NCBI GenBank assembly: GCA_038062875.1
Contig: JBBTWF010000007.1
Location: forward strand, 1-60,058
DNA: 60,058 bases
Source: Patescibacteria group bacterium
Lineage (GTDB): Bacteria; Patescibacteriota; Minisyncoccia; UBA6257; UBA9933
Direction: 5' to 3'
The position numbers and the translations under genes are program-made. Shown piece after piece: positions 183-57,093 of the stretch (position 1 is the stretch's first letter; each line of letters starts with the position of its first letter). The notes under the pieces were generated by a model. It was not told where the DNA came from. It made no database searches and saw only the letters and a list, made by a program, of their open reading frames with translations.

Positions 183-392
183 GTGTTTTATTTTATTTTC
201 CCGAAATTATTACCAAAAGGAGATTCATGGCGATTCGCGATGGATTTACTGGAAAAAGCCCATGTGGCCGTAGTGCCTGGCATTGCATTTGGTCCTTCTG
301 GCGAAAATCATATTAGGATGTCTTTTGGCAGGAGTGAAAAAGATATTAATGAAGCAATGAGGAGGATAAAGAAATTTCTTAAACATGACTGA
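183..392 (+). pseudogene. C-terminal fragment of a class I/II PLP-dependent aminotransferase
   Basis: FYFIFP...VAVVPGIAFG...HIRMSF matches the aminotransferase C-terminus; upstream 1-180 is stop-rich and very AT-rich, with no N-terminal part visible. Confidence 0.6.
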
Positions 393-1152
393 TATTTTTA
401 AACATATTGTTAAATTTAAACTAAAATGGCTTGCCAAGATTTATCTTTGGCGGTTTAAGCCGTATGTGATTTTAATTGCCGGAACAACCGGTCGGCATTG
501 GATTAAAGAAAAAGTTAAAGAGATTTTGGAAGAAAAAAATCTCTTGGTTCGCGCAAATAAGAAAAATTTCAATTCTGAAATAGGTCTGCCACTTTCAATT
601 TTGGACTTGTCTTCTGGCGAAGGAAGTTTTCGGGGTTGGCTCAAAATTTTATGGCAAGGCGTTAAAAAAATCCTCAATCCTCAATCCTTAATTCTAAATT
701 CTCAATATTTAATTCTTGAAATTGCTATTGACCGGCCGGAAAATATAAATTATTTAACGAGCATTATTAGACCTAATATTGTGATTCTAACAACCGTTAC
801 GATGATTTACTCCGAGAATTTTGAAAATCTGGATGAAATCAGCCGCGAATATGGAGAATTGGTAAAAACTTTACCTTGGAACGGCATTTTGATTTTAAAC
901 AATGACGATTTAAGAATAAAAGAATTAAAAGAATACTTTGACGGCAGAATTATAACATTTGGGTTTTCAAACGATTCTCAATATAGGGCGATTAATATTA
1001 ATAAAATTTCCGATGGCCAAATATTTAAAATAGAAATTCAAAGAAAGGAAAAAGAAATTTTAGACGTTAAAATTAATCGCTTTGGTCAACATCATATTTA
1101 CGCGGAATTGGTCGGGGCGGTTATTAGAGACAATTTTTCAGCCATAGGCTGA
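385..1152 (+). CDS. Mur ligase (MurF-like) middle-domain protein, truncated/divergent
   Basis: KKNFNSEIGLPLSIL, LILEIAIDRP and LILNNDD motifs; P-loop is AGTTGRH; no C-terminal domain. Confidence 0.7.
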   Translation: MTDIFKHIVKFKLKWLAKIYLWRFKPYVILIAGTTGRHWIKEKVKEILEEKNLLVRANKKNFNSEIGLPLSILDLSSGEGSFRGWLKILWQGVKKILNPQSLILNSQYLILEIAIDRPENINYLTSIIRPNIVILTTVTMIYSENFENLDEISREYGELVKTLPWNGILILNNDDLRIKELKEYFDGRIITFGFSNDSQYRAININKISDGQIFKIEIQRKEKEILDVKINRFGQHHIYAELVGAVIRDNFSAIG

Positions 1153-1325: not shown

Positions 1326-1592
1326 ATGAAACAAAACAAAGAAATTATAACGGCGTTGAAAAAAGCCGGGACTCATCTGAATAATGTTATAGAAATGACA
1401 GAGAAAAAGAAATATTGTATAGATATTCTCCAGCAGAATCTTGCGGTTATTGGACTTTTGAAATCTGCCAGTCAAAAACTTCTTGAAAGGCATCTTCACA
1501 GCTGTTTTGCCAAAGCGATGAAGGGAACCAACGAAAAAAGAAAAAAAGAGATGATTAAGGAAATATTAAAAATTAACAAATTATCCCAATAA
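1326..1592 (+). CDS. csoR: CsoR/RcnR family metal-sensing repressor
   Basis: YCIDILQQNLAVIGLL...LLERHLHSC (Cys/His/Cys ligand pattern); first gene of the copper operon. Confidence 0.85.
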   Translation: MKQNKEIITALKKAGTHLNNVIEMTEKKKYCIDILQQNLAVIGLLKSASQKLLERHLHSCFAKAMKGTNEKRKKEMIKEILKINKLSQ

Positions 1593-1595
1593 ATC

Positions 1596-2975
1596 ATGAA
1601 GAAAAAAATAGTTTATATAAAAGGAATGCATTGCGTCGCCTGCGAAAAACTCTTAAAAGACGAATTTGATGCGATTGAAGGCGTGATAGACGCAAAAGTG
1701 GATCGAAAAGCCAATACGGCGGAAATTTTTTATAAAGGAGCCGAGCCGGATTTTTCGGAAATAAAAAAAACCGCGAAAAAATTCGGCTATGACGCGTTTG
1801 AATCAAGGGAAGAGCTTAAGAATTCCAATTTAAGGCATCCGATGTCTCAAAACAGTTGGATGGATTGGGTGAACGCGGTTCTTATTGTCGCGGCGCTGCT
1901 GTTTGTTTATAAGGTCTTCAAAAACCTGGGATTTTTGGATAAAATTAATCTCAATAGCGATGAAGTAACTTTAGGCATCGCTTTTCTGATAGGACTAGTG
2001 GCTTCAATTTCTTCCTGTTTGGCGGTAGTCGGATCAGTCATAATCGCTTTTGGGGAAAAATACAAAAGCAATGGCGGCGGATTTTTTGAAAGCGCGGTAA
2101 AACCCAATTTATTTTTTCATATCGGGCGGCTGGCGACATTTTTCGCGCTCGGCGGAGCATTAGGAATGATCGGCGGAAAAATTAGCATCAGTGGAAACTT
2201 TATTTCAGTTTTTACCATCATCATCGCGGCAGTTATGGGTTGGCTGGGGCTTAATATTTTAGGATTGGCGCCTTCCATATCCAATCTTGGAATCCGGATG
2301 CCGGGAAAACTGACTAATAAATGGAACAAACTCAAGGAATCCGAGCATAAAGTGGCGCCATTTCTTCTGGGTGGCTTAAGTTTTTTTCTTCCCTGCGGAT
2401 TTACCCAGAGCATGCAAATTTTCGCTTTTACTTCCGGAAGTTTTTTGGCGGGAGGAATGACGCTCCTTATTTTCGCCCTGGGCACAATGCCGGCGCTTTT
2501 GATTCTTGGAGTGACCACTTCCTGGACCAAGGGGCAAAAAATGGTCGTTTTCCAAAAAGTGGCCGGAATGCTGATTTTACTTTTCGCCATTTATACTTTT
2601 CAATCCGGCTTGGCGCTTAAGGGAGTAAAAACAGATGTTTTATCGATTGACAACCGACCTACCTCGCCGACAGGCGGGCAACCGACAAATAATAACCAAA
2701 ATCAGCCCGCGCAGGAACAAATAGTGGAGACAAAACTTACCTACAACGGTTATGAACCGGCGGTGATCAAAATTAAAAAAGGAATTCCGGTGAAATTTAT
2801 CATTAAAGGTGAACAGGTCTCCGGCTGCACTAATCGGATTATCATTCCTGCTTTTAACATTACTAAAAATATCAGCTATGGAGAGAATATCATCAAATTC
2901 ACGCCGACCAAGGCCGGAACGATTGACTTTTCCTGCTGGATGGGGATGGTGAGAGGAAAATTTTTAGTAGAATAA
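1596..2975 (+). CDS. Heavy-metal-associated domain + DsbD_2/TauE-like membrane domain + C-terminal cupredoxin-like domain
   Basis: GMHCVAC; SSCLAVVG and LPCGFTQ membrane motifs; C-terminal FSCWMGM. Confidence 0.85.
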
Positions 2976-3004: not shown

Positions 3005-5164
3005 ATGAACACAAAAAAAATAATATTCAAAATAACCGGTATGACTTGCGCCAGTTGCGCGGCCAGTAATGAGAAAGCGCTTTTGAAAATCGAAGGCGTT
3101 TTGAACGCGAGTGTTAATATTGCGACCAAAAAAGCTCAAGTTGAATATGATGAAAATACTGTTTCAGAAAAAGAAATCAAAAAAACAATTTTGGAAAACG
3201 GTTATGGAGTTGAAGATGATTTAATGAGTGGCCACGGCCATCACGAGACAAATGACATCAAAAAAAATTGGAAAAGTTTTTTAGGCGCGGCAATTTTCAG
3301 CACGCCTTTGCTTTTGCAAATGTTTTTTAGTTTTGAGTCGGGCATAAAAACGGCCGGTTTGGATATTGTCGGCTGGATAAATTTCGTTTTAGCGACAATA
3401 GTTGTTTTATACTTTGGCCGGCGTTTTCATAAAATGGCTGTAAAACAAGCAAAAAAACTAGCCGCCAATATGGACACTTTAATTTCTATAGGAACATTGG
3501 CTGCTTATTTTTTTAGCGTTTGGGCGATTTTTACCGGAAAAGAAGGATATTTTGAAACCGCCGCGATTGTTATTACTCTTATTCTTCTAGGAAAATATTT
3601 TGAAGCCAAAAGCACTGGACAGGCAAGCGAAGCAATGCGAAAACTAATGGAAATGGGAGTAAAAAAAGCGCGGATTGTTATTAATGGAAAAGAAAAAGAA
3701 TTAGATATTAATGAAGTAAAAATCGGAGATATTGTTTCAGTGAGGCCTAGCGAAAAAATTCCCTTGGATGCTGAAGTTATAGAAGGCGAATCAAGCGTTG
3801 ATGAATCAATGTTGACTGGAGAATCATTGCCGGTGGAAAAAAAGAAAGGAATGAAGGTTTTCGGCGCGACAATAAACAAAAACGGAATTCTTAAAATCCG
3901 CGTGACTCAAACCGGCGAAGGCACGGTTTTGGCGCAGATAATAAAGACTGTGGAGGAAGCGCAGAATTCAAAAGCTCCGATTCAAAGATTAGCAGACAAA
4001 ATTTCCGGGATTTTCGTGCCGATTGTGATTATTATTGCTTTGACGACTTTTTTAAGCTGGTATTTTATTAAAAACGATTTTTCCAATGCGCTTATAAACG
4101 CCATGGCTGTCCTAGTAATCGCTTGCCCTTGCGCTTTAGGATTGGCAACTCCGACCGCTATTATGGCCGGAACCGGTAAAGGCGCGAAAAATGGAGTACT
4201 TTTCAAGACCGGAGAAAGCTTTGAAAAAACAAAAAATATTTCAATGATTGTTTTTGACAAAACCGGAACCTTAACCAAAGGAAAGCCGGCAGTGCAAGAG
4301 ATAATTTTTACTCCAGAGGAAAGAATTCTAAAAATCGCTTTTTCTCTGGCAAAGAATTCTGAACATCCGCTTTCTAAAGCAGTAACAGAATACGCAATAA
4401 AGAAAAATATGGAGCCGTTAAAAATTGAAGAGTTTAAGGAACACGAAGGCAAAGGAATCGTCGGGATATCTACGGAAAATAAAACGCGGCTGATAATGGG
4501 CAATAAAAAATTATTTGAAGAAAATGGAATTAGTATCGACAAAGCAGAAAGAATAATTTCTTCTGGAAAATTCGGTTTCGGGACGTGGCTTTTTATCGCT
4601 GAACAAAACGAATGTATCGGCGCTGTTTTAGTAGCTGATGAGATAAGAGATGAAGCCAAAGAAGTGATTACTGATATAAAAAATAGCGGATTGAAAACAG
4701 CGATGATTACTGGCGACAACAAAAAAACCGCTGAAGACATTGCGGAACGGCTTGGGATAGAGAATGTTCTGGCGGAAGTTTTGCCGAGTGAAAAATCAAG
4801 GGAAATAAAAAGATTGCAGGACAGCGGGGAAAAAGTCGTTTTCGTTGGAGACGGCATCAATGACGCGCCGAGCTTGGTGCAGGCAGATTTAGGAATCGCT
4901 ATGGGAAGCGCTACTGATATTGCCAAAGAATCAGGCCAGATAATTCTCATCCAGAATAACCTCCGAAAAGTTCCGGAAGCCATTAAAATCTCAAAAATTA
5001 CTTTCAAAACAATAAAACAAAACCTTTTTTGGGCTTTTTTCTATAATGCGGTTGCCATTCCATTAGCCGCTTTCGGATTTTTGAATCCGGCCATCGCCGC
5101 CGCCGCTATGGCGTTCAGTTCTGTTTCCGTTGTTTTGAACAGTTTGAGGATTGCTAAAAATTGA
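3005..5164 (+). CDS. copA: Copper-translocating P1B-type ATPase
   Basis: [33 protein letters not shown]...MAFSS. Confidence 0.95.
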
Positions 5165-44377: not shown

Positions 44378-45268
44378 TCAACAACCCTGACTTTTTTCTT
44401 TAAAATATCTTTTCGCGATTTTTATCGGCCAAGTCGGATGTTTTCGGAAAAGCGAACCGAATGAAACCGCGTCTGACCATTTCAGAGCATCTAAAACTTC
44501 TTTATACGCTTCATCAATATTCTTCTGCCAACCGATACTGGAAGAAATTATCGGCGTTTTTGTTCCCACGTCTTGTATCTTTAGCGCCATTCTTCTATTT
44601 ATTTCTTTGATGACTTTTCCTGAAACAGCGCCTGAAACATCGTATTTTTCTATTAGCGGAGATTCTTTCCCCGGGAAAACCATTTCCCATGGCACGGAAT
44701 TAAAACTTATCCATTCCGCGAATGGGGAAACCGCCAAAGCTATATCAAGATAATTTTTCTGGTGATAACCGATTTTAATTCCCACCGGCAATCTCGTTTG
44801 ACCTTTTAAAATCTCCATCGCTTTAGCGACTTCTTGTATGTCCCATTTTTTATCCACATTGGGACAGGATGAATTAAACTCAATCCCTTTAATAAAAGTA
44901 TTATTGAGTTTTAATTTCGCCAACTGAACAGAAAGATATTTTATTTCTATCAGCGAGTTTCCGCTAATAGAAATAATCACATCACGATTTATTTTTGGAA
45001 GATACTTATCTTTCCAAATATTAAAACCTGGATTGTCCAGCCCGACTGCGTTTACAACATAATTATCGCCATCGTAAATCGCTTTTAAATCCCCTTTTTG
45101 CGCTGATAGAGTCAAGGTTTTTATAACCGGAACTATAAGATTAAGATGTTTTTTTGAAATCATCCGTAAAAACCAATATTTTGGATGTGGCCATCCTCGT
45201 CCATCAAATCCGAGTGAACCGCTTGCCGCCAAAAACGTAAACTCAAATCCGTTGCTTAATTTTATCAT
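44378..45268 (-). CDS. Divergent dihydroorotate dehydrogenase-like flavoprotein
   Basis: AASG, KTLT, NAVGLDNPG, EFNSSCPN, GAVSG. Confidence 0.75.
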   Translation of the reverse strand: MIKLSNGFEFTFLAASGSLGFDGRGWPHPKYWFLRMISKKHLNLIVPVIKTLTLSAQKGDLKAIYDGDNYVVNAVGLDNPGFNIWKDKYLPKINRDVIISISGNSLIEIKYLSVQLAKLKLNNTFIKGIEFNSSCPNVDKKWDIQEVAKAMEILKGQTRLPVGIKIGYHQKNYLDIALAVSPFAEWISFNSVPWEMVFPGKESPLIEKYDVSGAVSGKVIKEINRRMALKIQDVGTKTPIISSSIGWQKNIDEAYKEVLDALKWSDAVSFGSLFRKHPTWPIKIAKRYFKEKSQGC

Positions 45269-45416: not shown

Positions 45417-45686
45417 ATGTTAAATAACGACTACCTGAAAACAATTAAAGAGCGAGGTAAAACAAGCCATGTTTATAAAAAATTTCAGCTAACCGGCTTG
45501 CTTATCGCCCAATTGTTAAACGATGAAAAACACAAGTCGCTTTATATTAAGCTGGCGAAAAAGCATAACAACGAACACTTATTAAGCATCGCAAAAGACG
45601 TTTCCGAAAGAAAAAAAATAGAAAACAAAGGAGGATATTTTATGAGAGTATTACAAAAAACACACCCGAATATTTTAAAAAAATAA
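45417..45686 (+). CDS. Hypothetical protein
   Basis: LNDEKHKSLYIKLAK...GYFM; TATAAT upstream; terminator GCGGAAGGT...ACCTTCCGC downstream. Confidence 0.7.
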   Translation: MLNNDYLKTIKERGKTSHVYKKFQLTGLLIAQLLNDEKHKSLYIKLAKKHNNEHLLSIAKDVSERKKIENKGGYFMRVLQKTHPNILKK

Positions 45687-47264: not shown

Positions 47265-47294
47265 AAATATATAAAGTTTTGTTTTTGCTATTTC

Positions 47295-47422
47295 CGATAA
47301 TGTATCCGAGTATGCGAAGTTTTCGCGACTAAAAGGAGCAAAAATTTTGGCGAAGATAAAATTCAACTCATTAATGTAATGTAAAAATGAATTTTATCGT
47401 AGCCGTATATTCGGTGTTAGGC
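47295..47422 (-). repeat. attC-like site (distal; R' degenerate, ATTATCG)
   Basis: Minus-strand R'' GCCTAAC just after the cassette stop; imperfect palindrome sharing the CGAAGTT...AATTT-GG core with the other sites. Confidence 0.7.
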
Positions 47423-47440
47423 GTTGTAAGGATCGGCGAT

Positions 47441-47788
47441 TTATGCTTTTTTAAACTTTGTATTATATATACTAACAAGTAAGTATGCAACAATAATGTT
47501 AAAATAAAAAGTGTTAAAGTCAATGCTCTCACATGAATTTTTATCGGAAATTAATGCTGGTATAGGATATAGTAAATCTAGAATATAATCCAAAAAGTTA
47601 GAGCACGCCCCTGATGGGTTTAAGATTTTTACTATTGGAACATGGACAGAATATGATCCAGGGCACCCTCCAATGGCATCGCAAAAAGGACTCCCATAGT
47701 TTATCCAAAATACTGGTAAAACCAGAAGCAGTAATAAAGTTAAGTATATTTTTGATTTATTCGGTTTAAAAAATTCTTTCCAATTCAT
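47441..47788 (-). CDS. Cassette 5: small membrane protein
   Basis: Two transmembrane helices with a Cys-containing loop; lies between attC-like sites. Confidence 0.75.
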   Translation of the reverse strand: MNWKEFFKPNKSKIYLTLLLLLVLPVFWINYGSPFCDAIGGCPGSYSVHVPIVKILNPSGACSNFLDYILDLLYPIPALISDKNSCESIDFNTFYFNIIVAYLLVSIYNTKFKKA

Positions 47789-47848
47789 AAACTTAATAAT
47801 TTATTAACTAAATATAACTTCTCTACTTATTAAGCCGAGCCTTATTTC

Positions 47849-47948
47849 GCCTAACGTTAGGGATATACGAAGTTTTTCTGGAACGAAGTGGAAGAAAAAT
47901 TTGGGTGAAGCCCGAGCCGAGGGCTGAACCGTATATCCCTTGTTATAC
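47849..47948 (-). repeat. attC-like site
   Basis: GCCTAAC-gtt-AGGGATATACG...CGTATATCCCT-t-GTTATAC. Confidence 0.85.
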
Positions 47949-48046
47949 GCCCCGACGACTGAAAGGAGGAGAGCGCAGCGTGGTTCGAGCGATAGCGAGA
48001 AAGTCCGCCTCCGCCCGCCGATTATTTTAATTTTATAAACTCTTTA

Positions 48047-48895
48047 CTATTTGTTCAATAATTTCTTTTGTTCTTCTTGAAAATAATTACAATTACCGCC
48101 TGGACGATATTCTTGTGTTTTGCTTAATTTTACAGCTCCCAAGCAATTGTCCTTTAAAGATAAATTAAATTCATCAATAATTTTTCCACAGAGATTTTCA
48201 TCGCAAAGCTGACTCGCAGCCGAAGAGTAGCATTCGTTTTTAGCAGTTTGACCGATAATTTTTTCACAAATATTTGGATTTTTCCATGTATCTAAATGTG
48301 CATAGCACCAATCTCTATTTTCCTGCTCACCCAATTGGTCGCAATAATTTGAATTTAGTGCTCCTGCAGTTGATTGAGATTTTCTTACTGCAACCAGACC
48401 TAAACATTTGCTCGCTTCATCATTGTCTAGGATTTTATTACAAATCTGTGGGTCAACATTATATTCTGCTAAATTATAGTAGCAGGAATCAGCTGTTTCT
48501 GAATTAACAACTTTTTCACAAAGAAGATGTTTGGAATAACACATATCCTTTAGGCGAGCATCGCCTTTTGTTTCTAAATTACATTCATATGTCGTAGTAA
48601 AACTGAAAGCATAAAAACTTATAGAAACAGTTAGAATTAATATTAAAAATATCCAAAATATATTTGAAGAGCTTTGGACAGAAACACTTTCCTTTTTAAA
48701 GACTAAAGTTATCCAACCTATTGTTCCACCCAATATTGTGGAAAAGGTCATTATTAGCGTTTTAAGTATATATGAATCAAAAGCAAGAAAAAATCTAAAA
48801 ATGCGAAGAATGTCATAGTACAAAAAAGTGCTCAAAAACACTCCGAGGGCAAAGCCGATGACAGAACCTAAAAGGATTGTTTTAAATTTGTTCAT
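48047..48895 (-). CDS. Cassette 4: membrane protein with Cys-rich helical repeats
   Basis: Three transmembrane helices, then repeated C..I......D.CY units. Confidence 0.8.
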   Translation of the reverse strand: MNKFKTILLGSVIGFALGVFLSTFLYYDILRIFRFFLAFDSYILKTLIMTFSTILGGTIGWITLVFKKESVSVQSSSNIFWIFLILILTVSISFYAFSFTTTYECNLETKGDARLKDMCYSKHLLCEKVVNSETADSCYYNLAEYNVDPQICNKILDNDEASKCLGLVAVRKSQSTAGALNSNYCDQLGEQENRDWCYAHLDTWKNPNICEKIIGQTAKNECYSSAASQLCDENLCGKIIDEFNLSLKDNCLGAVKLSKTQEYRPGGNCNYFQEEQKKLLNK

Positions 48896-48957
48896 AAATC
48901 TGATTAATTATTAAAGTTTATAAAATTTTCTTTTTAAGGCGAGCGGAGGCGGATTGC

Positions 48958-48977
48958 GTTTAACTCGTTATTAAGTG
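48958..48977 (-). repeat. Truncated att site (attI-like fragment replacing attC)
   Basis: TAACTCGTTATTA is identical to the attI-like core at 52174-52186. Confidence 0.7.
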
Positions 48978-49058
48978 ACCCGAACGAAGCGTAGCGGAGT
49001 GAGAGCGCAGCGTGGCAAGGATTTTTTGAAGAAAAATCCGCAGAGTTCCGAACGCCGC

Positions 49059-49619
49059 CTATTTCATAGGTTGTATTTTCAGAATTGCACTATCAATTAT
49101 CTTTTGTGGTATCTCTGGTATAATTTTATTGGTCACATAATATTCTGATGATTGATCTGGTTTTTCATAATAATCTAACCCCCAAAAATAATTGCCATAT
49201 TGGACTATATGACTAAATTTTAATTTTTCATCTTCTGTTTTATATACACTAACTAATACATTTTTGTCAGATATTTGAGTTTCAAAAAAATTTATATTTG
49301 TTTTTGACCAAGCTTTTTTTAGGTCGTCATAACCCGTTTTCTTATATCCCTGTATATCCGTAGGAGTAGTATCTTGAATATTTAGATATGTAATTCGTAT
49401 AACCTCTTCACCTTCGTTATTTGTTCCTTGAAGGAAATTATTTGGCATCTTCTGAATGGAATAATCCTTCGGGTACTGAAATGCAATTACATTATCTTCA
49501 TATTGCTTCCATGTCTCTTTTGATTCTCGGTTTTGGGTATAGTTTATTAGGACAATTCCAATTAACAATATGCAAAATAGGAAGATTATTATAAATTTTT
49601 TTGAAATTAAGGTTCCCAT
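49059..49619 (-). CDS. Cassette 3: membrane-anchored PsbP-like protein
   Basis: N-terminal transmembrane helix, WKQY......FQYP.D motif. Confidence 0.7.
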   Translation of the reverse strand: MGTLISKKFIIIFLFCILLIGIVLINYTQNRESKETWKQYEDNVIAFQYPKDYSIQKMPNNFLQGTNNEGEEVIRITYLNIQDTTPTDIQGYKKTGYDDLKKAWSKTNINFFETQISDKNVLVSVYKTEDEKLKFSHIVQYGNYFWGLDYYEKPDQSSEYYVTNKIIPEIPQKIIDSAILKIQPMK

Positions 49620-49681
49620 ATATTTGATTTGTTAATAGTAATATATAAACTTTACTTTTTAAAGGCGGGGTTTGGAATTTC

Positions 49682-49810
49682 ACTTAACGTTAGGCATATC
49701 CGAAGTTTTTGCGTAATGAAATGAAGCAAAAATTTGGGTGAAAGAATTTTTTACTCCTTATCGAAATATATTTGATGAAAAATTCTTGAACCGGATATGC
49801 CTTGTTATGT
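49682..49810 (-). repeat. attC-like site
   Basis: ACTTAAC-gtt-AGGCATATCCG...CGGATATGCCT-t-GTTATGT. Confidence 0.85.
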
Positions 49811-49994
49811 GATGTAAATTTTTTTCTTTTTTTATTTTTTTCAATTTGCTTTTATTCTAAAATAATAAATAAGTTTTTCGTTTTTGATTTTGGGCAGAGG
49901 GGTTAAGGGTGAATGCCCAAAATCAAAAACTCCTTATTATTTCTAAACTGCAAATTCTTTTTGTTCTTCGGCAATTTCACGGATTATTTAAGTT

Positions 49995-50261
49995 TTACGT
50001 AACAATTTCCATAGAAAGCACGGAACTTAAAAAATAATATACATAACACAAGATTGAAAGCAATAAATATAAAAAAAGAATTTTTTTGCTTTTAACATAA
50101 TGACGAATTACAAAAAACAAAACAATTATTACTATTAAAGGGATAAAAGTAAAGAGTATCCCATGATAATTTACAGATTGTAGACGTTCATTCCAGAAAT
50201 TTCTTTGAATTAAATCAGTAAAAGAGTTCGGAGGATAATTAGTATCGTATGGACTTGTCAT
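49995..50261 (-). CDS. Cassette 2, second ORF: small two-helix membrane protein
   Basis: Hydrophobic C-terminal half. Confidence 0.6.
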   Translation of the reverse strand: MTSPYDTNYPPNSFTDLIQRNFWNERLQSVNYHGILFTFIPLIVIIVLFFVIRHYVKSKKILFLYLLLSILCYVYYFLSSVLSMEIVT

Positions 50262-50311
50262 GTGTTTAATTTAAACAATGATTTTTTAAAATAAAAAAGA
50301 TTGAAATCATT

Positions 50312-51751
50312 TTATTTATTTATACAATCGTCGGGACAGCTATCTTTATTTTCACCTTGATACTTATTGCATATATTATCTCCGCAAACTTCATTAATTC
50401 TTCCCATTAAGTAAATTTTATGCGAGTCGCCAACATCGCAGTTATATGTAGCCCCATAATGTATATTAACTGGATATTCTCCAAAATATTCTTTTTCACA
50501 GCTTTTGCAGTCATCAGGGCAAGAGCCTGTTTCAAATTCTTTATCACCGCATATGGTATTTCCGCACTCTTCATTAAGAATTAAATCATTCGGAATAATA
50601 TAATTCTCCATTATCCAGCTAACGCTTTTTCTTTTTAATCCTTTGGGGTCTTTTTCAAAATAGTAATCCCATACTTTTTTTGCTGTTTCAAATCGGTCAG
50701 CTGCATAATCTTCAAGATGCGCAATAAAACCGCAAACCTCATCAGATGATGCTTTGTCACATTCTTCCACATTTATTTTCCAATCATCATTTAAATAACC
50801 AGAACGGACATTAATTCTGTATATTTTATGATTATTAAAAGTGTCAACTGCAACTTTTGAAGTTCTACCGTCAGCCCATGGATCAACCTTAAGGGAATCA
50901 AGTTCATATATATGTCCTGTTGGCATTTCACTTTTAAGCGCCATTACTCCGGATTTTACTGTGTGCGGATAGGCGAGTTTATTAAATCTCACATACGCTT
51001 CATCAAATGTTCCTAAATAAGGGTCTGTTTGATTTAGATAAAAAGGAAATCTATTTCCAAAAAATTTTTTATACACTTCAATTGCTATTTCTTCAGGAAG
51101 ATTAGAATAACCATCCCATCCCGCATGATTAGCGCTGTGGTGTTCTATTGCTATTTCATGTCCATTTTCTTGCCATTCTCTGACTTTGTTAGTTTTAATT
51201 GGATCTGCCAAAATCATATCAATCCACTGGATATGAAATCCTAATGTAAGTTTTGTGTTGTAAGAGTCAGCAAGATTAATTAATTTTTCAAGTACACCAA
51301 ACATTCCATTATTTGCCGATTCTGGATGTATATGAAGGTTAAAGAAAAGATAAGGGGTGCCTGACAATTCTTCTTTGCATTCTCCAGAATAATCTTGTGA
51401 AGTTTTTGCACTCTGCCTCAAACAATCATTATTATAAGTTTTTCCATCACAGCCACAAACAGGCTTAGAATCTAAAGGGCAATCTGTTGGAGCTATTATG
51501 CATTTACCTTCTGCATCACCACACGATTTGAAATTACAATAGCTATTAGTTTTACAATCTTTATCAGATTTGCAGGATCTTAGTAATAAATTTTGGAAAA
51601 AATTATCTTTTTTTCCTGAGGCAGCTGATTGTTGATATGTGTCAAGCCGTAAGGATATTGAACCTGACCAAATAAAAGTCGCGGATATTCCCAAAATAAA
51701 AGCTGTGATGAAAATAACGTACCATTTATTGTTTTTGATTTTGTTTATCAT
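50312..51751 (-). CDS. Cassette 2: membrane-anchored protein with Kazal-like domain and polysaccharide-deacetylase-like domain
   Basis: PVCGCDGKTYNNDC (Kazal-like); WQENGHEIAIEHH; C-terminal CG...C...E...CP.DC repeats. Confidence 0.75.
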   Translation of the reverse strand: MINKIKNNKWYVIFITAFILGISATFIWSGSISLRLDTYQQSAASGKKDNFFQNLLLRSCKSDKDCKTNSYCNFKSCGDAEGKCIIAPTDCPLDSKPVCGCDGKTYNNDCLRQSAKTSQDYSGECKEELSGTPYLFFNLHIHPESANNGMFGVLEKLINLADSYNTKLTLGFHIQWIDMILADPIKTNKVREWQENGHEIAIEHHSANHAGWDGYSNLPEEIAIEVYKKFFGNRFPFYLNQTDPYLGTFDEAYVRFNKLAYPHTVKSGVMALKSEMPTGHIYELDSLKVDPWADGRTSKVAVDTFNNHKIYRINVRSGYLNDDWKINVEECDKASSDEVCGFIAHLEDYAADRFETAKKVWDYYFEKDPKGLKRKSVSWIMENYIIPNDLILNEECGNTICGDKEFETGSCPDDCKSCEKEYFGEYPVNIHYGATYNCDVGDSHKIYLMGRINEVCGDNICNKYQGENKDSCPDDCINK

Positions 51752-51802
51752 AGGTTTTTGTTATGTAAATTTAAAAAATAAAATTAATAAAAAAGTTATT
51801 TC

Positions 51803-51880
51803 ACATAACGTTTCGGCATCATCCGAAGTTGCGTAGCAATTTGGGTGGAGCGAAGCGGAACTGGATATGCCGTGTTATCG
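51803..51880 (-). repeat. attC-like site (proximal)
   Basis: ACATAAC-gttt-CGGCATcATCC...GGATATGCCG-t-GTTATCG. Confidence 0.85.
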
Positions 51881-51898
51881 GATGTAAAAATTTGAAAT

Positions 51899-52144
51899 CT
51901 ATTTTTTCCGCAAAGAAACAATAATGCTTGACAGCACAAATCCACTGAAAATTGATATGACCAAAAAAATTATATTGCCAGAAAACGATAAAGGACTGCA
52001 AACCTCCGGACAACGACTATATAGAAATGAATACGAAAATGTTGATAAAAGTATGTGGCTGGGTAGTAAATAAAGGGTTAGAAATATAAAAGACAGAGAA
52101 ACGAATATTATCGTAAATATAATTTTTTGTTTTAAATGGTTCAT
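51899..52144 (-). CDS. Cassette 1: small two-helix membrane protein
   Basis: Two transmembrane helices with a CxxxC loop; first cassette after attI. Confidence 0.7.
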   Translation of the reverse strand: MNHLKQKIIFTIIFVSLSFIFLTLYLLPSHILLSTFSYSFLYSRCPEVCSPLSFSGNIIFLVISIFSGFVLSSIIVSLRKK

Positions 52145-52170
52145 AAAAATAGATTTTAAATTTTTATTTC

Positions 52171-52235
52171 CGATAACTCGTTATTATGCGAAGTGTTTGC
52201 GCAAAAACGACCTTTATTTGTATGTTATGCGAAGT
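52171..52235 (-). other. attI-like recombination site
   Basis: Minus-strand core GTTATCG with adjacent inverted half-site (ATAAC-GA-GTTAT); direct repeats TTATGCGAAGT at 52184-52194 and 52225-52235; no long hairpin; next to the integrase 5' end. Confidence 0.75.
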
Positions 52236-52292
52236 ATGGTATAATTCGCTTATTGACTTAACTGATTTTATTTTATAATAAAACATCAAATT

Positions 52293-53120
52293 ATGCAACC
52301 ATTATTAGAAAGAACAAGGCAAGAATTAAAATTAAGGAATTACAGCCCAAAAACGATTAAAAGTTATCTTTATTACATTAAAGAGTATTTATTATTTGCA
52401 AAACGCGCTAAAGAGCAAAATAAATCAAAAGAAGAAGCGATTAGAGAATTTTTGTTAAATAAACAAGACAAGGGATTTTCCAGCCAAACCACTAATTTAT
52501 GCCTTAACGCCATAAAATTTTTTTATCGGGAAATTATAAAATCGCAAGATAAAATAGACATTAAATTCGCCAAAAGATCGCAAAAATTGCCAGTAGTCCT
52601 ATCGCGAGAAGAAATCAGAAAAATAATAGAAACGCTATCTAATGATAAGCATAAATTATTAATTGCTTTGGCTTACGGCGCTGGTTTACGAGTAAGCGAA
52701 GCGACAAACTTAAAAGTAAAAGATATTAATATTGAAGAACTGACTATTCATCTTAAAGACGCAAAAGGTAAAAAAGATAGAATTACGATTTTTCCTGAAA
52801 AGATAAAATCTGATATTATAAATATAGTATCTGGCAGAGATAAAAACAGCTATGTTTTTGAAAGCGAACGAGGTGGGAAACTAACTGAACGTACCGCGCA
52901 GAAAGTTTTTGAAAACGCGCTTAAAAAATCAAACATCCAAAAAGATGCGACCTTCCATTCGCTCCGTCATAGTTTTGCTACGCATTTACTGGAAAACGGA
53001 GTTGATGTTAGATATGTTCAAGAATTATTAGGACATCAAAATATCAGAACCACACAATTATATACTCAGGTAACAAACCCGAGTATTAAAAAAATAAAAA
53101 GCCCGTTAGATAATTTATGA
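52293..53120 (+). CDS. Integron-associated tyrosine recombinase (short, lacks the IntI-specific insertion)
   Basis: LRNYSPKTIKSY N-terminal SAM-like domain, KLPVVLSREE, YGAGLRVSE, KGKKDR, HSLRHSFATHLLE, LLGH...TTQLY. Confidence 0.88.
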   Translation: MQPLLERTRQELKLRNYSPKTIKSYLYYIKEYLLFAKRAKEQNKSKEEAIREFLLNKQDKGFSSQTTNLCLNAIKFFYREIIKSQDKIDIKFAKRSQKLPVVLSREEIRKIIETLSNDKHKLLIALAYGAGLRVSEATNLKVKDINIEELTIHLKDAKGKKDRITIFPEKIKSDIINIVSGRDKNSYVFESERGGKLTERTAQKVFENALKKSNIQKDATFHSLRHSFATHLLENGVDVRYVQELLGHQNIRTTQLYTQVTNPSIKKIKSPLDNL

Positions 53121-54759: not shown

Positions 54760-55134
54760 CTAAAAACTCTGAACTTCTTCAAGAGAAATAGTTTCTAAAT
54801 TATAACTGTCAACCACTAATTTTAAGTTGGTGGTTTTGTTATTGATTATGGCTTGAGATTTAACGGTTATTTCCGAGGGCGCGGTTTCAATCGGCAAAAT
54901 TTCACATTGATAATCCCCTACCGCGATTATTTCATCTCCCGCATAAGACCCGGCGGATAATTTCAAAAGAGCGGTTTCCAAACAACTATTGGATAAAAAA
55001 TAGCTTATTTTTTTTGATTCAAAATTTTCCGTGTCAAAACGCGCCAATAAAACTCTGACTCCTAAAGCCAAAGCGACTAAAATAACTATTAAAGTTAAAA
55101 TAATTGAAGTTGTGATAGCTAAATATCCTTTCAT
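54760..55134 (-). CDS. PilX-like minor pilin
   Basis: KG|Y leader plus hydrophobic helix; SCLETALLKL. Confidence 0.7.
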   Translation of the reverse strand: MKGYLAITTSIILTLIVILVALALGVRVLLARFDTENFESKKISYFLSNSCLETALLKLSAGSYAGDEIIAVGDYQCEILPIETAPSEITVKSQAIINNKTTNLKLVVDSYNLETISLEEVQSF

Positions 55135-55139
55135 ATTGT

Positions 55140-55682
55140 TTACTCAACGACAAAAAACATTTTTAATGTCGTGGAAGCGATTCCGCTTAACCGACCTCCT
55201 GATTTATTTTCTAAAGATAATGTGATTTTTAAAGTTGAAGGATTTTCAGCTGTGGAAAAATGTTCCGCTAAAAATTTACCGACCCGAACATTATCATTTG
55301 TTAAATTAATCGCAGTCCCGCCTGATTTTGACAATGTGATTTTATCGCCGCTTAAAGCGAAAACTATAGGATTAGAGCTGGAATCAAATTTATTGATTGA
55401 AAATTGAGTTGAAAAAGAATTAGCTGCCGGAAAATTGACGGTTTCCGCTCCGTTCATCGCCCATTCTATTTTCCGCGCCACAAACTCCACGTTAGCCGAT
55501 GTTTCAGTTTTTATTCTTGTCCTTTCGGCGTTTTCCAAAGACCTACTAACCAACAAGAAAGCGGAGCTGATAAAAACCGCCATAATCGCCAAATAAATTA
55601 CCACTTCAATCAGTGTCAACCCCACTTCATTCTTATTGCGATGTAATAATTCTAAGGGCGTCATTGCTTTTGACTGAAACAA
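55140..55682 (-). CDS. Type IV prepilin-like protein
   Basis: G|LTLIEVVI motif. Confidence 0.8.
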   Translation of the reverse strand: MFQSKAMTPLELLHRNKNEVGLTLIEVVIYLAIMAVFISSAFLLVSRSLENAERTRIKTETSANVEFVARKIEWAMNGAETVNFPAANSFSTQFSINKFDSSSNPIVFALSGDKITLSKSGGTAINLTNDNVRVGKFLAEHFSTAENPSTLKITLSLENKSGGRLSGIASTTLKMFFVVE

Positions 55683-57093
55683 AAATTAAATTATTCTCGT
55701 AATCAATGCCTGTGGCCTGCTGTGGAAAATTGAACGAACTAATCTGTTTGATATTGGCGGGGTCAGCGACATTTAAAGCGATAAATTCTTTATTGGCGTT
55801 GCCGGTTGCCAGAAAAGCGAAATTACCAACTGCTACGATATCATTAACCGAATCATAAATATTTATTGACCCCCTTGACGTTATGCTTGAAACATCAGCC
55901 GCGTCCAGCGCGTAAAATTTATTTTCCGTCCCCAGAAAAACTCTTGAGTCGGTTTGAACAAAAACGCTTTTCCCTTCTTGCCCAGATACGTTCCAAGAAC
56001 CGATATTCTGAAGAGACGAGGGATTAGAGACATTAATAACAATCATAGTTTTACCGATGTTATCCTCAACCGCTAAATAAGCGCGTTCAGCCAAAACAAA
56101 AATATCTTTGACATCAGCCATAATCGGAATAGTTGATAAAATTTGAGGATTAAGAGGATTACTTGCGTTTATCGCCATTAATTCGTTTCTTCCGATGTAA
56201 ACTATATTGTTGTCATAAAAAACGCTCAAAGCGTCAACGGTTCCGTCAAGGTCAAGCTGGGCGACTTTTACCGGCGAACTCGGGTTGCTGACGTCAATCA
56301 CCATAAATTCCCTGTCATCGTCCGAAGAAACGGCATAGAGATAATTTCCGTTCATCGCCAAAGAATTAATGCCATTGCCACCTGTTTCAAATTCTCCAAG
56401 TAAAGTAGGAACCGAGGGATTACTGACATTAAAAATTGATAAATCTTTTTTAGACTGACTTGAAGCAATACTGGAAACATAAACTTTATTATTTTCAATT
56501 ATTACATCCGTGCCTTCTCGACCGGCTCCCAAATCAATACTGGATAATGTCTGAGGATTAGCCCAGTTGCCGCTTAAACCAGAATCACCAGAGCCCGGAC
56601 CGCCGCCGCTGTCCAAAACCGATTCCCAATCAGTTAAAAGTAGAGGTAATTCAACTTTCCCGGAATTCCATTCTGCGCGGCTCGTTATTTGTTTTGTTTT
56701 AAAATCAACATCGGAAATAATAATTTTTCTGGTAAAAATATCGTTTGTGTCCCCGCTTCCGGAGAATTGCCATTCTCCATTGGAAAAAACCAGCCCATGT
56801 TCACCGACCGTTAAAGAACTCCAATTTTTTTGAGCAATCGCTTTAACCGCTTCCAATCCTTCCGAAGATAAAGATTGCGCTCTGATATTTTTTTCTTTGT
56901 CCACTGCCAAAAACTGATGTTGAGAAATCAAAATTAAACCGCTGCTTACGCCTATGGCAAACACCGTCAAACCGATTAAAATTTCCACCAAACTAAACCC
57001 CGCACCTTTAGAAGATAATAACGCTTGAACGCTTTTTTTTGTTTTGCGTTGATTTTCTTTAGGATTAGGACAAGATTTTTTGAAAAAAAACAT
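55633..57093 (-). CDS. Prepilin-like protein with C-terminal LVIVD-repeat beta-propeller (putative adhesin)
   Basis: G|FSLVEIL; repeated VIDVSNPSSP-type units. Confidence 0.82.
   Translation of the reverse strand: MFFFKKSCPNPKENQRKTKKSVQALLSSKGAGFSLVEILIGLTVFAIGVSSGLILISQHQFLAVDKEKNIRAQSLSSEGLEAVKAIAQKNWSSLTVGEHGLVFSNGEWQFSGSGDTNDIFTRKIIISDVDFKTKQITSRAEWNSGKVELPLLLTDWESVLDSGGGPGSGDSGLSGNWANPQTLSSIDLGAGREGTDVIIENNKVYVSSIASSQSKKDLSIFNVSNPSVPTLLGEFETGGNGINSLAMNGNYLYAVSSDDDREFMVIDVSNPSSPVKVAQLDLDGTVDALSVFYDNNIVYIGRNELMAINASNPLNPQILSTIPIMADVKDIFVLAERAYLAVEDNIGKTMIVINVSNPSSLQNIGSWNVSGQEGKSVFVQTDSRVFLGTENKFYALDAADVSSITSRGSINIYDSVNDIVAVGNFAFLATGNANKEFIALNVADPANIKQISSFNFPQQATGIDYENNLIFVSVKSNDALRIITSQ

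What the first reader, a model, noticed from the sequence alone, without database searches (positions are those of the whole stretch)
47295..53120. Integron-like cassette system run by a short integrase lacking the IntI signature insertion
Seen: divergent recombinase gene, attI-like site with direct repeats, and five co-oriented cassettes separated by RYYYAAC...GTTRRRY-type hairpins. Each cassette's starting core matches its own ending core (GTTATCG/CGATAAC, GTTATGT/ACATAAC, GTTAAGT/ACTTAAT, GTTAAAC/GTATAAC, GTTAGGC/GCCTAAC), the footprint of integration of circular cassettes. The 275-aa enzyme runs KGKKDR...SYVFESERGGKL with no room for the IntI-specific insertion (I2 helix region). Established: that insertion defines integron integrases, supports recombination of folded attC, and is what standard detection HMMs require. 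Inference: a distinct integron class that annotation would call XerD and miss. Best candidate for an undescribed system in this window.
Basis: partly seen in the sequence, partly recalled or inferred. Interest (0 to 1): 0.9.

Follow-up and report, generated by a model that had tools for sequence, protein, structure and literature searches.

The report
Integron-like cassette array, short integrase
A tiny groundwater bacterium carries a gene-capture array built like an integron, but run by a shorter recombinase that lacks the segment thought to define integron integrases, and the same system recurs in many related bacteria.

Summary
At 47290-53120 a 275-aa tyrosine recombinase is transcribed away from a dif-like attI and five co-oriented cassettes. 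Four cassettes end in a conserved 91-142 nt imperfect hairpin site.

The enzyme is most like integron integrases by profile and predicted fold, but it is about 43 residues shorter at the IntI-specific insertion. It falls below the IntI and XerA family cut-offs.

A covariance model built from 11 sites finds matches only in this array within the 434-kb genome. In other genomes:
- Sites occur in 36 of 44 Patescibacteria genomes that carry this short recombinase, against 2 of 36 that lack it.
- In at least 23 of those genomes the sites lie beside the recombinase gene on the opposite strand.
- None of 401 phylum genomes has a recombinase over the IntI cut-off.

The hairpin stem covaries: 7 of 11 pairs show compensatory changes. 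The first bases of a cassette pair with its own downstream site in 53 of 98 cases, against 9 of 114 for the same physical site. That is the footprint of circular cassettes crossing over at G|TT. Related genomes share both flanks but hold unrelated cassettes.

Activity, and whether the substrate is single-stranded, are inferred. Seven literature searches found no description.

The parts
52293..53120 (+). Short integrase: a 275-aa tyrosine recombinase. Catalytic residues read from the sequence are R133, K158-161, H222, R225, H248 and Y257. It lacks the IntI insertion.
   Evidence: Predicted fold has pLDDT 89.5, with only helix 169-179 between the beta-hairpin 151-166 and helix 199-212. The best structural match is 2a3v, E 7.5e-19.
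52166..52194 (-). attI core: ACTTCGCATAA-TAACGAG-TTATCGGAAAT, two dif-like arms around a 7-nt centre. The inferred crossover lies between G52177 and T52176.
   Evidence: In an alignment of 20 loci, conservation ends exactly after AACGAG. A pattern taken from this site hits one place in 40 kb of the E. coli terminus region.
52225..52235 (-). Second copy of the arm motif ACTTCGCATAA (upstream direct repeat of attI).
   Evidence: It is conserved as TTCG(C/T)ATAAy-ATACA in 20 loci.
51809..52176 (-). Cassette 1. ORF 51899-52144, 81 aa, predicted membrane protein. Ends in attC1.
   Evidence: The arms 51871-51906 and 52145-52180 are 36 nt and 89% complementary.
51798..51888 (-). attC-like site 1.
   Evidence: R1 83.3 bits.
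49688..51808 (-). Cassette 2. Two ORFs: 50312-51751 (479 aa, weak Kazal-like stretch) and 49995-50261 (88 aa).
   Evidence: The arms are 37 nt and 81% complementary.
49677..49818 (-). attC-like site 2.
   Evidence: R1 94.9 bits. The DNA fold has z-scores of -5.3 and -7.0 on the two strands.
48964..49687 (-). Cassette 3. ORF 49059-49619, 186 aa. It ends in an atypical GC-rich junction without an L stem.
48953..48984 (-). Atypical junction: an attI-like core (..CACTTAAT-AACGAG-TTAAACGCAAT) inside the array.
   Evidence: R1 gives only 12.9 bits, E 0.17.
47855..48963 (-). Cassette 4. ORF 48047-48895, 282 aa, membrane-anchored and Cys-rich.
47844..47956 (-). attC-like site 4.
   Evidence: R1 93.8 bits. 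Its 5' flank is shared with L010.
47301..47854 (-). Cassette 5. ORF 47441-47788, 115 aa.
   Evidence: The arms 47416-47437 and 47834-47855 are 82% complementary.
47290..47430 (-). attC-like site 5, the last of the array. Its outer arm TTATCGGAAAT repeats the attI right arm.
   Evidence: R1 90.4 bits. The 12-nt direct repeat TATTTCCGATAA lies at 47289-47300 and 52165-52176.

Best explanation
This is a working gene-cassette capture platform of the integron type, run by a dedicated recombinase from the XerA/IntI branch that has no IntI-specific insertion.

Proposed mechanism:
- The recombinase binds a dif-like attI core: two 11-nt arms around a 6-7-nt centre, plus one further arm copy upstream.
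- It also binds the attC-like site that ends each cassette. That site is an imperfect hairpin. It has an R stem (..ACATCnnATAAC paired with GTTAnnnGAAAT..), a 1x3 internal loop, an 11-bp L stem whose sequence is free but whose pairing is kept, and a variable centre holding the motif CACCCAAAT.
- Strand exchange occurs between G and TT of the 3' R box.
- Circular cassettes therefore insert at attI and leave by recombination between two attC sites. In an array, the first bases of each cassette then pair with that cassette's own downstream R'' box.

Shown here: the anatomy, the position of the crossover, the covariation of the stem, the link between gene and arrays across the phylum, and cassette turnover between relatives.

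Inferred: that the adjacent enzyme is the catalyst; that the site acts as a folded single strand (probably the bottom strand), which I put at about 0.55; and that the array is active today.
For: Enzyme:
- TIGR02249 (integron integrase) is the best family at 227.7 bits but matches in two pieces. XerA_Arch scores 218.3, XerC 185 and XerD 178.
- By sequence the best PDB match is VchIntIA (161 bits), with 43 fewer residues between the two aligned blocks.
- By predicted fold the best match is also VchIntIA: E 7.5e-19, TMq 0.78.
- The distance from KDR to HxLRH is 58 aa here. It is 100 aa in IntI1 and 62 and 66 aa in E. coli XerC and XerD (plus a hand count for the window protein).

Sites:
- On a MAFFT alignment of 11 sites, 92.6% of cells are paired, against 25-44% when the 3' partners are slid by 1-3 columns.
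- 7 of 11 L-stem pairs show changes on both sides, and 0 of 500 shuffles reach the observed covariation score.

Specificity: 4 of 4 genome matches lie in this array.

Association with the gene:
- 8 of 9 judgeable genome loci have a site.
- 23 of 23 metagenome matches lie upstream on the opposite strand.
- 36 of 44 recombinase-positive genomes have sites, against 2 of 36 negatives. In at least 23 genomes the sites lie on the recombinase contig in divergent orientation, for example 13 sites over about 31 kb in G016.

Crossover:
- The variable triplet beside GTTA/TAAC is fully complementary in 53 of 98 own-cassette pairs. The figure is 9 of 114 for same-site pairs and 9.5% for random pairs.
- Pairing continues to about position 30. 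At positions 13-20 it is 0.55 against 0.28 for random pairs.
- attI conservation across 20 loci stops exactly at GAG|TTA.

Turnover:
- L065 and L069 share both flanks, but the arrays between them are unrelated.
- L067 and L068 are 85% identical over the recombinase gene and syntenic downstream, but unrelated on the array side.
- L067 and L072 share a site plus 116 nt at 93% identity, while their recombinase genes are 68% identical.

Cassettes:
- There are 102 intervals with a median length of 836 nt. The longest ORF is on the cassette strand in 82, on the opposite strand in 15, and absent in 5.
- Sampled contents are accessory and defence genes, including MmeI, GmrSD, DNA methylases, Fic and an AbiEii-like ATPase.

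Strand asymmetry: the strand complementary to the ORFs folds more stably in 101 of 119 sites.
Against: - No direct sign of recombination was obtained. All runs holding this DNA are kept only as contigs.
- The double-stranded 3' half of each site already has both arm motifs with an 8-nt centre, so ordinary duplex recombination cannot be excluded.
- 8 of 44 recombinase-positive genomes had no detected site, and 2 of 36 negatives had sites.
- Own-cassette pairing is 54%, not 100%. Missed or decayed sites are the likely reason, but that was not shown.
- One junction in the window lacks the hairpin.
- In L006 two sites lie downstream of the gene.
- The model was trained on this family, its E-values are rough, and related genomes are not independent samples.
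- Almost all the data come from metagenome assemblies.
- The tree is poorly resolved. It holds only class-1-like IntI sequences and no XerA.
Confidence: 0.8

Rival explanations
1. A Xer/dif-type module system working on duplex DNA. Each cassette would be a small integrative element (like an IMEX or a pdif module) bounded by inverted dif-like duplex sites. It would be exchanged by ordinary two-strand recombination, with no folded single strand involved.
For: - The attI core fits a dif pattern. The pattern taken from it hits once in the 40-kb E. coli terminus region, beside hipA.
- The enzyme scores nearly as well on the XerA family as on IntI and has Xer-like loop lengths.
- Each half of a site carries an arm-centre-arm layout.
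- No conserved extrahelical base is seen in the L stem. An extra G occurs in 2 of 11 sites.
Against: - Duplex binding sites would be conserved in sequence. Here the L arms vary freely but stay complementary, with 7 of 11 pairs compensatory.
- The two halves differ in centre length, so they are not equivalent duplex sites.
- The centres of attI and attC differ in length and sequence, which disfavours classical exchange that depends on homology.
- A strand bias in folding energy is seen in 101 of 119 sites.
- The enzyme is accessory rather than the housekeeping Xer: it is present in 45 of 401 genomes.
Confidence: 0.15
2. The arrays are made by a canonical IntI that is missing from the assemblies. 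The short recombinase would then be a bystander or a chromosome-dimer resolvase.
For: - The genome is only 82.5% complete.
- Arrays without a neighbouring integrase exist: G013, G008, and G188 contig C21.
Against: - 0 of 401 phylum genomes score over the IntI cut-off, including the single-contig genome G308 that has arrays.
- Gene and sites co-occur in 36 of 44 genomes against 2 of 36.
- The divergent, adjacent layout is fixed, and a conserved attI abuts the gene.
- A separate XerC/D-like gene exists in this genome and across the phylum.
Confidence: 0.03
3. The repeats are intergenic palindromic elements (REP- or MITE-like), terminators or small-RNA genes. They would have no role in recombination.
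For: They are intergenic hairpins downstream of ORFs. Some fold no better than shuffled sequence, for example attC1 with z -0.6 and -1.3.
Against: - They are confined to one locus in this genome.
- They are tied to one recombinase gene and to one orientation.
- The outer arms pair with the far end of the cassette rather than within the site: 53 of 98 against 9 of 114. Only a crossover at that point explains this.
- Array content differs between syntenic relatives.
Confidence: 0.02

Closest known systems
Classical integrons (IntI1; VchIntIA with VCR sites; sedentary chromosomal integrons)
   Same: - The recombinase gene is divergent from attI, followed by co-oriented cassettes that are mostly promoterless in appearance, each ending in an imperfect hairpin with AAC...GTT boxes.
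- The crossover is at G|TT.
- Stem pairing is conserved while the sequence is not.
- The chromosomal position is conserved while cassettes vary.
- The cargo is accessory and defence genes.
- The enzyme's best profile and fold matches are IntI.
   Different: - There is no IntI additional domain or I2 helix: about 43 residues fewer.
- It scores below the IntI cut-offs.
- attI is dif-like.
- The R stem of a free cassette would be about 20-30 bp with a conserved 2-nt mismatch, rather than 7 bp.
- There is no conserved extrahelical base.
- The centre of the site holds a conserved CACCCAAAT motif.
- The host phylum is Patescibacteria.
Archaeal XerA acting on dif (Pyrococcus and Thermoplasma structures 4a8e and 5hxy)
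   Same: - Similar length and loop sizes, and a single-protein recombinase.
- The family score is 218.3 against a cut-off of 220.
- These are the second-best sequence and fold matches.
- The attI arms resemble dif.
   Different: - XerA is a housekeeping enzyme with one dif site per chromosome (recalled knowledge).
- Here the gene is present in about 11% of sampled genomes and always sits with arrays.
Integrons of Archaea (Ghaly et al. 2022, PMC9668308; passages read)
   Same: Cassette arrays found outside the usual bacterial phyla, in small-genome uncultured lineages.
   Different: That paper states that archaeal IntIs carry the IntI-specific additional domain. These enzymes do not.
pdif modules of Acinetobacter plasmids, and IMEX elements such as CTX phage at dif (recalled, not tested here)
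   Same: - Gene modules are bounded by Xer-type sites.
- CTX phage uses a folded single-stranded hairpin as its Xer substrate.
   Different: Those systems borrow the host's XerC/D and have no dedicated neighbouring recombinase, no attI platform and no covarying hairpin at each module.
'Cand' and 'integron-like' subgroups of simple tyrosine recombinases (Smyshlyaev et al. 2021, PMC8138268; passages read)
   Same: - The paper notes Xer-related enzymes specific to candidate phyla.
- It also notes that the IntI insertion is 'not fully conserved' in its integron-like subgroup.
   Different: - No arrays, attI or attC are described for these enzymes in the passages I saw.
- The paper's datasets are supplements that I could not open, so I cannot say where it places this protein.

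Membership tests
Integron (IntI-type) | Tyrosine recombinase gene next to, and divergent from, a cassette array | tested here: met
   Seen in the window, in 23 of 23 metagenome matches and in at least 23 genomes.
Integron (IntI-type) | IntI-specific additional domain (I2 helix region) in the catalytic domain | tested here: not met
   - TIGR02249 model positions 179-235 are unmatched.
- There are 26 residues where IntI4 has 69.
- The predicted fold has one helix (169-179) in that interval.
Integron (IntI-type) | Score over the curated IntI family cut-offs | tested here: not met
   TIGR02249 scores 227.7 against 265, and NF011946 scores 144.6 against 435. IntegronFinder's intI_Cterm model was not available.
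Integron (IntI-type) | attC: an imperfect hairpin with R''/R' and L''/L' boxes, where structure is conserved more than sequence | tested here: met
   92.6% of cells are paired and 7 of 11 L pairs are compensatory. There are 110 matches in 20 array regions.
Integron (IntI-type) | Crossover at G|TT of R', so that a cassette's first bases belong to its own attC | tested here: met
   53 of 98 own-cassette pairs against 9 of 114 same-site pairs. attI conservation ends at GAG|TTA.
Integron (IntI-type) | Conserved extrahelical bases in the L box that set strand choice | tested here: not met
   An extra G occurs in only 2 of 11 aligned sites. What is conserved instead is a 1x3 internal loop and a 2-nt mismatch in the R stem.
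Integron (IntI-type) | Recombination of attC as a folded bottom single strand | not testable with these tools
   The only evidence is indirect: the bottom strand is more stable in 101 of 119 sites.
Integron (IntI-type) | Pc promoter driving the cassettes | tested here: inconclusive
   The consensus scan found 35 promoter-like sites against 25.8 +/- 5.1 expected, which is not informative in AT-rich DNA.
Xer/dif chromosome-dimer resolution (XerA, XerC/D) | Recombination site with two 11-nt arms around a short centre | tested here: met
   The attI core fits, and the pattern taken from it hits once in the 40-kb E. coli terminus region, beside hipA.
Xer/dif chromosome-dimer resolution (XerA, XerC/D) | Near-universal housekeeping gene with a single site per replicon | tested here: not met
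   The short type is in 45 of 401 genomes, sites occur in arrays of up to 20, and a separate XerC/D-like gene is widespread.
Xer/dif chromosome-dimer resolution (XerA, XerC/D) | Score over the family cut-off | tested here: not met
   XerA_Arch scores 218.3 against 220, XerC 185 against 335 and XerD 178 against 330.
pdif-module / IMEX elements | Modules bounded by duplex Xer sites and moved by the host's own XerC/D | tested here: inconclusive
   Arm-like motifs flank the cassettes, but a dedicated accessory recombinase and a covarying hairpin are present.

The most novel reading that the evidence does not exclude
These elements may be a living lineage of integrons that never acquired the I2 insertion. 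They would be either the ancestral Xer/dif-to-integron intermediate or an independent invention from a XerA-like enzyme. In either case, hairpin-cassette capture would not need the domain now used to define and detect integrons. A whole class of integrons, the main gene-capture platform of roughly a tenth of Patescibacteria, would have been invisible to standard tools.
Probability: 0.3. Interest if true: 0.95.

Novelty: new variant of a known kind. Interest (0 to 1): 0.88.

Why it matters
Integrons are defined and detected by the IntI-specific insertion. Work listed (abstracts only: PMC7790495, PMC4792948) presents gain of the I2 helix as the step that turned a duplex recombinase into a single-strand one.

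A widespread natural system has integron anatomy and the crossover footprint, with a dif-like attI, but no I2. It offers three things:
- a direct test of whether I2 is needed for hairpin recombination;
- a candidate intermediate between Xer/dif and integrons;
- an explanation of how ultra-small symbiotic bacteria acquire defence and surface genes.

It also means surveys that require intI_Cterm undercount integrons. Cassette arrays reported without an integrase in other lineages deserve a second look.

Tried and rejected
- Simple hairpin scan (AAC + 10-bp stem + GTT) over the window: too noisy in AT-rich DNA, so I dropped it for profile and covariance models.
- Strict regular expression for sites: it found only 8 and was too narrow.
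- Synteny of def and fmt downstream of the gene: none in 38 related loci. The gene's neighbourhood is therefore not conserved at that distance.
- None of the window's cassette proteins has a homologue in those 38 loci.
- Bacteroidota relatives (35-46% identity, also short): no convincing sites. L025 gave E 0.11 and 0.56, and L081-L086, L088 and L098 gave none. The link to arrays is not shown for them.
- Viral contigs: no relative of the enzyme.
- Promoter and terminator scan: not above chance.
- Attempt to sample diverse IntI sequences for a tree: the IntI1 query returned only relatives at 72% identity or more. The 'Proteobacteria'-labelled MAGs holding L009, L011 and L016 are small genomes (0.9-1.4 Mb) with the same short gene, so no proteobacterial centre was available. 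The tree is therefore weak on where IntI attaches.
- Weak model hit at 45482-45529 (17.4 bits): it lies inside an ORF and I judged it to be chance.
- Sequencing runs: 8 runs in 2 groundwater studies hold the stretch, and 7 of them may be the source. This is no independent evidence of anything.
- Supplementary files of papers were closed. The classification tables of PMC8138268 may already place this family.
- Seven literature searches found no description of integrons with such an integrase in Patescibacteria. Subscription journals are not covered.
- Correction to my notes: my note says 6 of 20 sampled cassette ORFs had no Pfam hit. The outputs show 5.

Full report
THE LOCUS. The window is contig C7 of a 434-kb, 15-contig genome of 37-39% G+C, estimated 82.5% complete. 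Close relatives of its proteins come from Patescibacteria (CPR) MAGs.

ORF 52293..53120 (+) encodes a 275-aa tyrosine recombinase. The def and fmt genes follow it on the same strand. To its left, all on the minus strand, lie six ORFs in five units. They encode small membrane or secreted proteins with no significant Pfam family, apart from a weak Kazal-like stretch. The units are separated by conserved repeats.

THE ENZYME. Among NCBIfam models the integron-integrase family TIGR02249 scores best, at 227.7 bits against a cut-off of 265. The match comes in two pieces. In the genome scan these cover model positions 2-178 and 236-315, so 57 positions are unmatched. Archaeal XerA follows at 218.3 bits (cut-off 220), then XerC at 185 and XerD at 178.

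Against solved structures the best sequence match is VchIntIA (2a3v, 161 bits). Query residues 7-169 align to 8-171 and 196-274 align to 241-319. The query therefore has 26 residues where IntI4 has 69. Pyrococcus XerA (4a8e, 159 bits) aligns in one piece.

The distance from the KDR motif to HxLRH is 58 residues here by hand count. The scripted count gave 58 for 94 of the 114 close relatives it could score. For the other 20, including the window protein, its pattern caught a later motif. The same count gives 100 for IntI1 and for 61 of 84 IntI1-like proteins scored, and 62 and 66 for E. coli XerC and XerD.

An AlphaFold model built on 38 homologues has mean pLDDT 89.5. Between the beta-hairpin (151-166) and helix 199-212 it shows only one helix, 169-179. 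Foldseek ranks 2a3v first (E 7.5e-19, TMq 0.78, 325 alignment columns for 275 query residues), then XerA.

The catalytic residues R133, H222, R225, H248 and Y257 and the lysines at 158-161 are present. I read these from the sequence; most are invariant or nearly invariant among the 38 homologues.

THE SITES. Four repeats fold as imperfect hairpins: 51798-51888, 49677-49818, 47844-47956 and 47290-47430. Read on the cassette strand, the common plan is:
- ..ACATCnnATAAC, then a single A;
- an 11-nt L'' arm, then GGYT;
- a variable sub-hairpin, the motif CACCCAAAT, and a second sub-hairpin;
- ACTTC overlapping the L' arm, then AAC;
- GTTAnnnGAAAT.

The fifth junction (48953-48984) has no L arms and looks like a copy of the attI core.

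The conserved 3' motif occurs three times in the genome, all in this array. A covariance model, R1, was built from 11 sites: 4 from the window and 7 from five related loci. It finds four matches in the whole genome, all here.

On the MAFFT alignment, which was not fitted to any structure, 92.6% of cells form pairs. When the 3' partners are slid by 1-3 columns the figure is 25-44%. Seven of the 11 L-stem pairs show changes on both sides, and 0 of 500 shuffles reach the observed covariation score. The shuffle control ignores relatedness, but the slid controls do not.

attI. Reading away from the gene, the window has ACTTCGCATAAC, about 20 nt, then ACTTCGCATAA-TAACGAG-TTATCGGAAAT.

In an alignment of the 230 nt upstream of the gene in 20 loci, both arm copies and AACGAG are conserved. 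Similarity ends exactly after GAG, and what follows is TTAnnnGAAAT and then unrelated sequence. That places the crossover between G and TT.

A pattern taken from the window's attI (CGCATAA, 5-8 nt, TTATNNNAAAT) hits once in 40 kb of the E. coli K-12 terminus region, beside hipA. From memory, that is where dif lies. The attI core is therefore dif-like.

THE LINK BETWEEN GENE AND ARRAYS.
- Genome collection. The scan returned 38 loci, of which 15 are CPR-type at 53-77% identity. Nine of those have at least 600 nt upstream of the gene, and 8 of the 9 hold an R1 match at E below 0.01. The ninth has only a cut-off match at its contig end (E 0.96). All 15 non-window matches at E below 0.01 are on the strand opposite the gene. 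Thirteen are upstream and two, both in L006, are downstream.
- Metagenome loci. I searched 28 of the 46 loci, leaving out short, partial and very distant ones. There were 23 matches in 15 loci, and all 23 lie upstream on the opposite strand. L076 and L077 are the same contigs as L014 and L015.
- Phylum sample. Across 401 Patescibacteria genomes drawn evenly from the phylum, none reaches the TIGR02249 cut-off. The two-piece short type is listed in 45 of them, including this genome. Most of the others show only a XerC/D-like C-terminal match.
- Positives against controls. I ran R1 on the 44 other positive genomes and on the first 36 non-positive genomes of the table. Sites at E of 0.001 or better occur in 36 of the 44 and in 2 of the 36.
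- Adjacency. In at least 23 genomes the sites lie on the recombinase contig, on the opposite strand and on the upstream side. G016 has 13 sites over about 31 kb, G139 has 7, and G250 has at least 6. Several recombinase genes lie within 1 kb of a contig end, and many contigs end at a site, as expected if arrays break assemblies.
- Caveats. Related genomes are not independent, and the model favours this family of sites.

THE CROSSOVER FOOTPRINT. I fetched 20 array regions and R1 found 110 matches in them. I added the matches and compared two things: the 12 nt that start at the G of each site's 3' box, and the 12 nt that end at the AAC of a site's 5' box.

The three variable bases next to GTTA/TAAC are fully complementary as follows:
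- in 53 of 98 pairs made of one site's 3' box and the next site's 5' box, which are the two ends of one cassette;
- in 9 of 114 pairs taken within one physical site;
- in 9.5% of random pairs.

Own-cassette pairing continues outward. At positions 13-20 it is 0.55 against 0.28 for random pairs. At positions 21-30 it is 0.40 against 0.30. In the window it reaches 36 and 37 nt.

A conserved 2-nt mismatch (GAAAT facing ACATC) interrupts this stem. This pattern is what insertion of circular cassettes by exchange at G|TT leaves behind. A fixed palindromic repeat would give the opposite result.

TURNOVER.
- L065 and L069 are 67-74% identical on both flanks of the locus, but the 3-4 kb between the flanks is unrelated.
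- L067 and L068 are 85% identical over the recombinase gene and syntenic downstream, but unrelated on the array side.
- L067 and L072, whose recombinase genes are 68% identical, share one site plus 116 nt at 93%.
- A 40-nt flank of the window's site 4 recurs in L010.

CASSETTES. There are 102 intervals between sites, with a median length of 836 nt. The longest ORF is on the cassette strand in 82, on the other strand in 15, and absent in 5.

Of 20 larger ORFs sampled, 15 have Pfam families. These include MmeI, GmrSD, an EcoRI-type methylase, an N6/N4 methylase, an AbiEii-like ATPase, Fic, NUDIX, a 2'-5' RNA ligase, a racemase, D-Ala-D-Ala ligase, oxidoreductases, an APH-like kinase and a 1415-aa FN3/peptidoglycan-binding protein.

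MECHANISM AND WHAT REMAINS OPEN. The covarying stem argues for a folded substrate. So does the strand bias in folding energy: the strand complementary to the ORFs is more stable in 101 of 119 sites, by a mean of 2.3 kcal/mol. The unequal centres of attI and attC point the same way.

The absence of a conserved extrahelical base fits the absence of the I2 region, which in VchIntIA contacts such bases (recalled from the 2a3v paper).

However, each 3' half-site also looks like a complete duplex core, so a duplex pathway is not excluded. No read-level evidence could be obtained.

PHYLOGENY. In a quick maximum-likelihood tree of 41 rows, XerC, XerD and this genome's 311-aa Xer separate from all short relatives plus IntI1-like proteins with SH-aLRT support of 100. 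The IntI1 clade sits on a long branch among the short relatives with weak support. The tree holds only class-1-like IntI sequences and no XerA, so it cannot order the events.

LITERATURE. Seven searches found no description of this system.
- Passages of PMC9668308 state that archaeal IntIs carry the additional domain.
- Passages of PMC8138268 mention a 'Cand' subgroup of Xer-related enzymes. [quoted passage not shown] They do not mention arrays.
- Public names for close relatives are generic recombinase, XerC, XerD or 'tyrosine recombinase/integron integrase'.

VERDICT. The finding is real and general within Patescibacteria, and it was not found in the literature searched. It works like an integron, but it fails the defining IntI-domain test. 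I file it as a new variant of the integron kind, with high interest.

Noticed in passing
L047 (G334:C5) 1426-2403 (+); weak site at 223-439 (-): A relative of the short enzyme, open only if two TGA codons are read as Gly (code 25). It carries about 32 extra residues exactly at the IntI-insertion position and gives a contiguous TIGR02249 match (model positions 2-314, 235 bits). It has a weak R1 hit upstream (E 0.0013). It could be an intermediate form, or an artefact of the code I chose.
   Followed up: partly
window 48928-49062 and 47947-48022; L010 6580-6640: GC-rich segments sharing CCACGCTGCGCTCTC.. precede some sites in place of the usual TTTACATC flank. One 40-nt version is identical in the window and in a Moraniibacteria MAG. 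Their role is unknown.
   Followed up: partly
window 47289-47300 and 52165-52176: The same 12 nt (TATTTCCGATAA) bound the whole array. This is expected if the original attI right arm was pushed to the far end, but cassette 1 then starts with the same arm.
   Followed up: no
all sites, e.g. window 49730-49738: CACCCAAAT is nearly invariant in the otherwise variable centre of the sites. No function is proposed. It may be a binding site for a host factor or a further integrase contact.
   Followed up: no
L006 1-5029: Here sites lie on both sides of the recombinase gene (1-88 and 663-767 upstream; 3602-3704 and 4891-5002 downstream), unlike every other locus.
   Followed up: no
L008 1088-1513 (-): A peptide deformylase homologue (33% identical to the window's def) sits as a cassette between a site and the recombinase gene.
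   Followed up: no
window 44378-45268 (-); L108 6297-7214 (+): A dihydroorotate-dehydrogenase-like ORF just beyond the window's array has a 33% identical homologue inside the array of G016. The window's array may once have reached further left.
   Followed up: partly
G013 C6 73548-75547 and C10 8173-9656; G008 C1 494916-497010; G188 C21 29401-42715: These are arrays of sites with no short recombinase gene detected nearby. They may be orphan arrays or gaps in the assemblies.
   Followed up: partly
window 54760-57093 (-): A run of genes with type IV pilin-like N-termini (e.g. GFSLVEILIGL, LTLIEVVIYLAI) lies downstream of fmt. It is not connected with the finding.
   Followed up: no
L009, L011, L016 (G403, G402, G401): MAGs labelled Bdellovibrionales, Gammaproteobacteria and Deltaproteobacteria in their records are 0.9-1.4 Mb genomes carrying the CPR-type short recombinase. 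Their labels look doubtful.
   Followed up: partly
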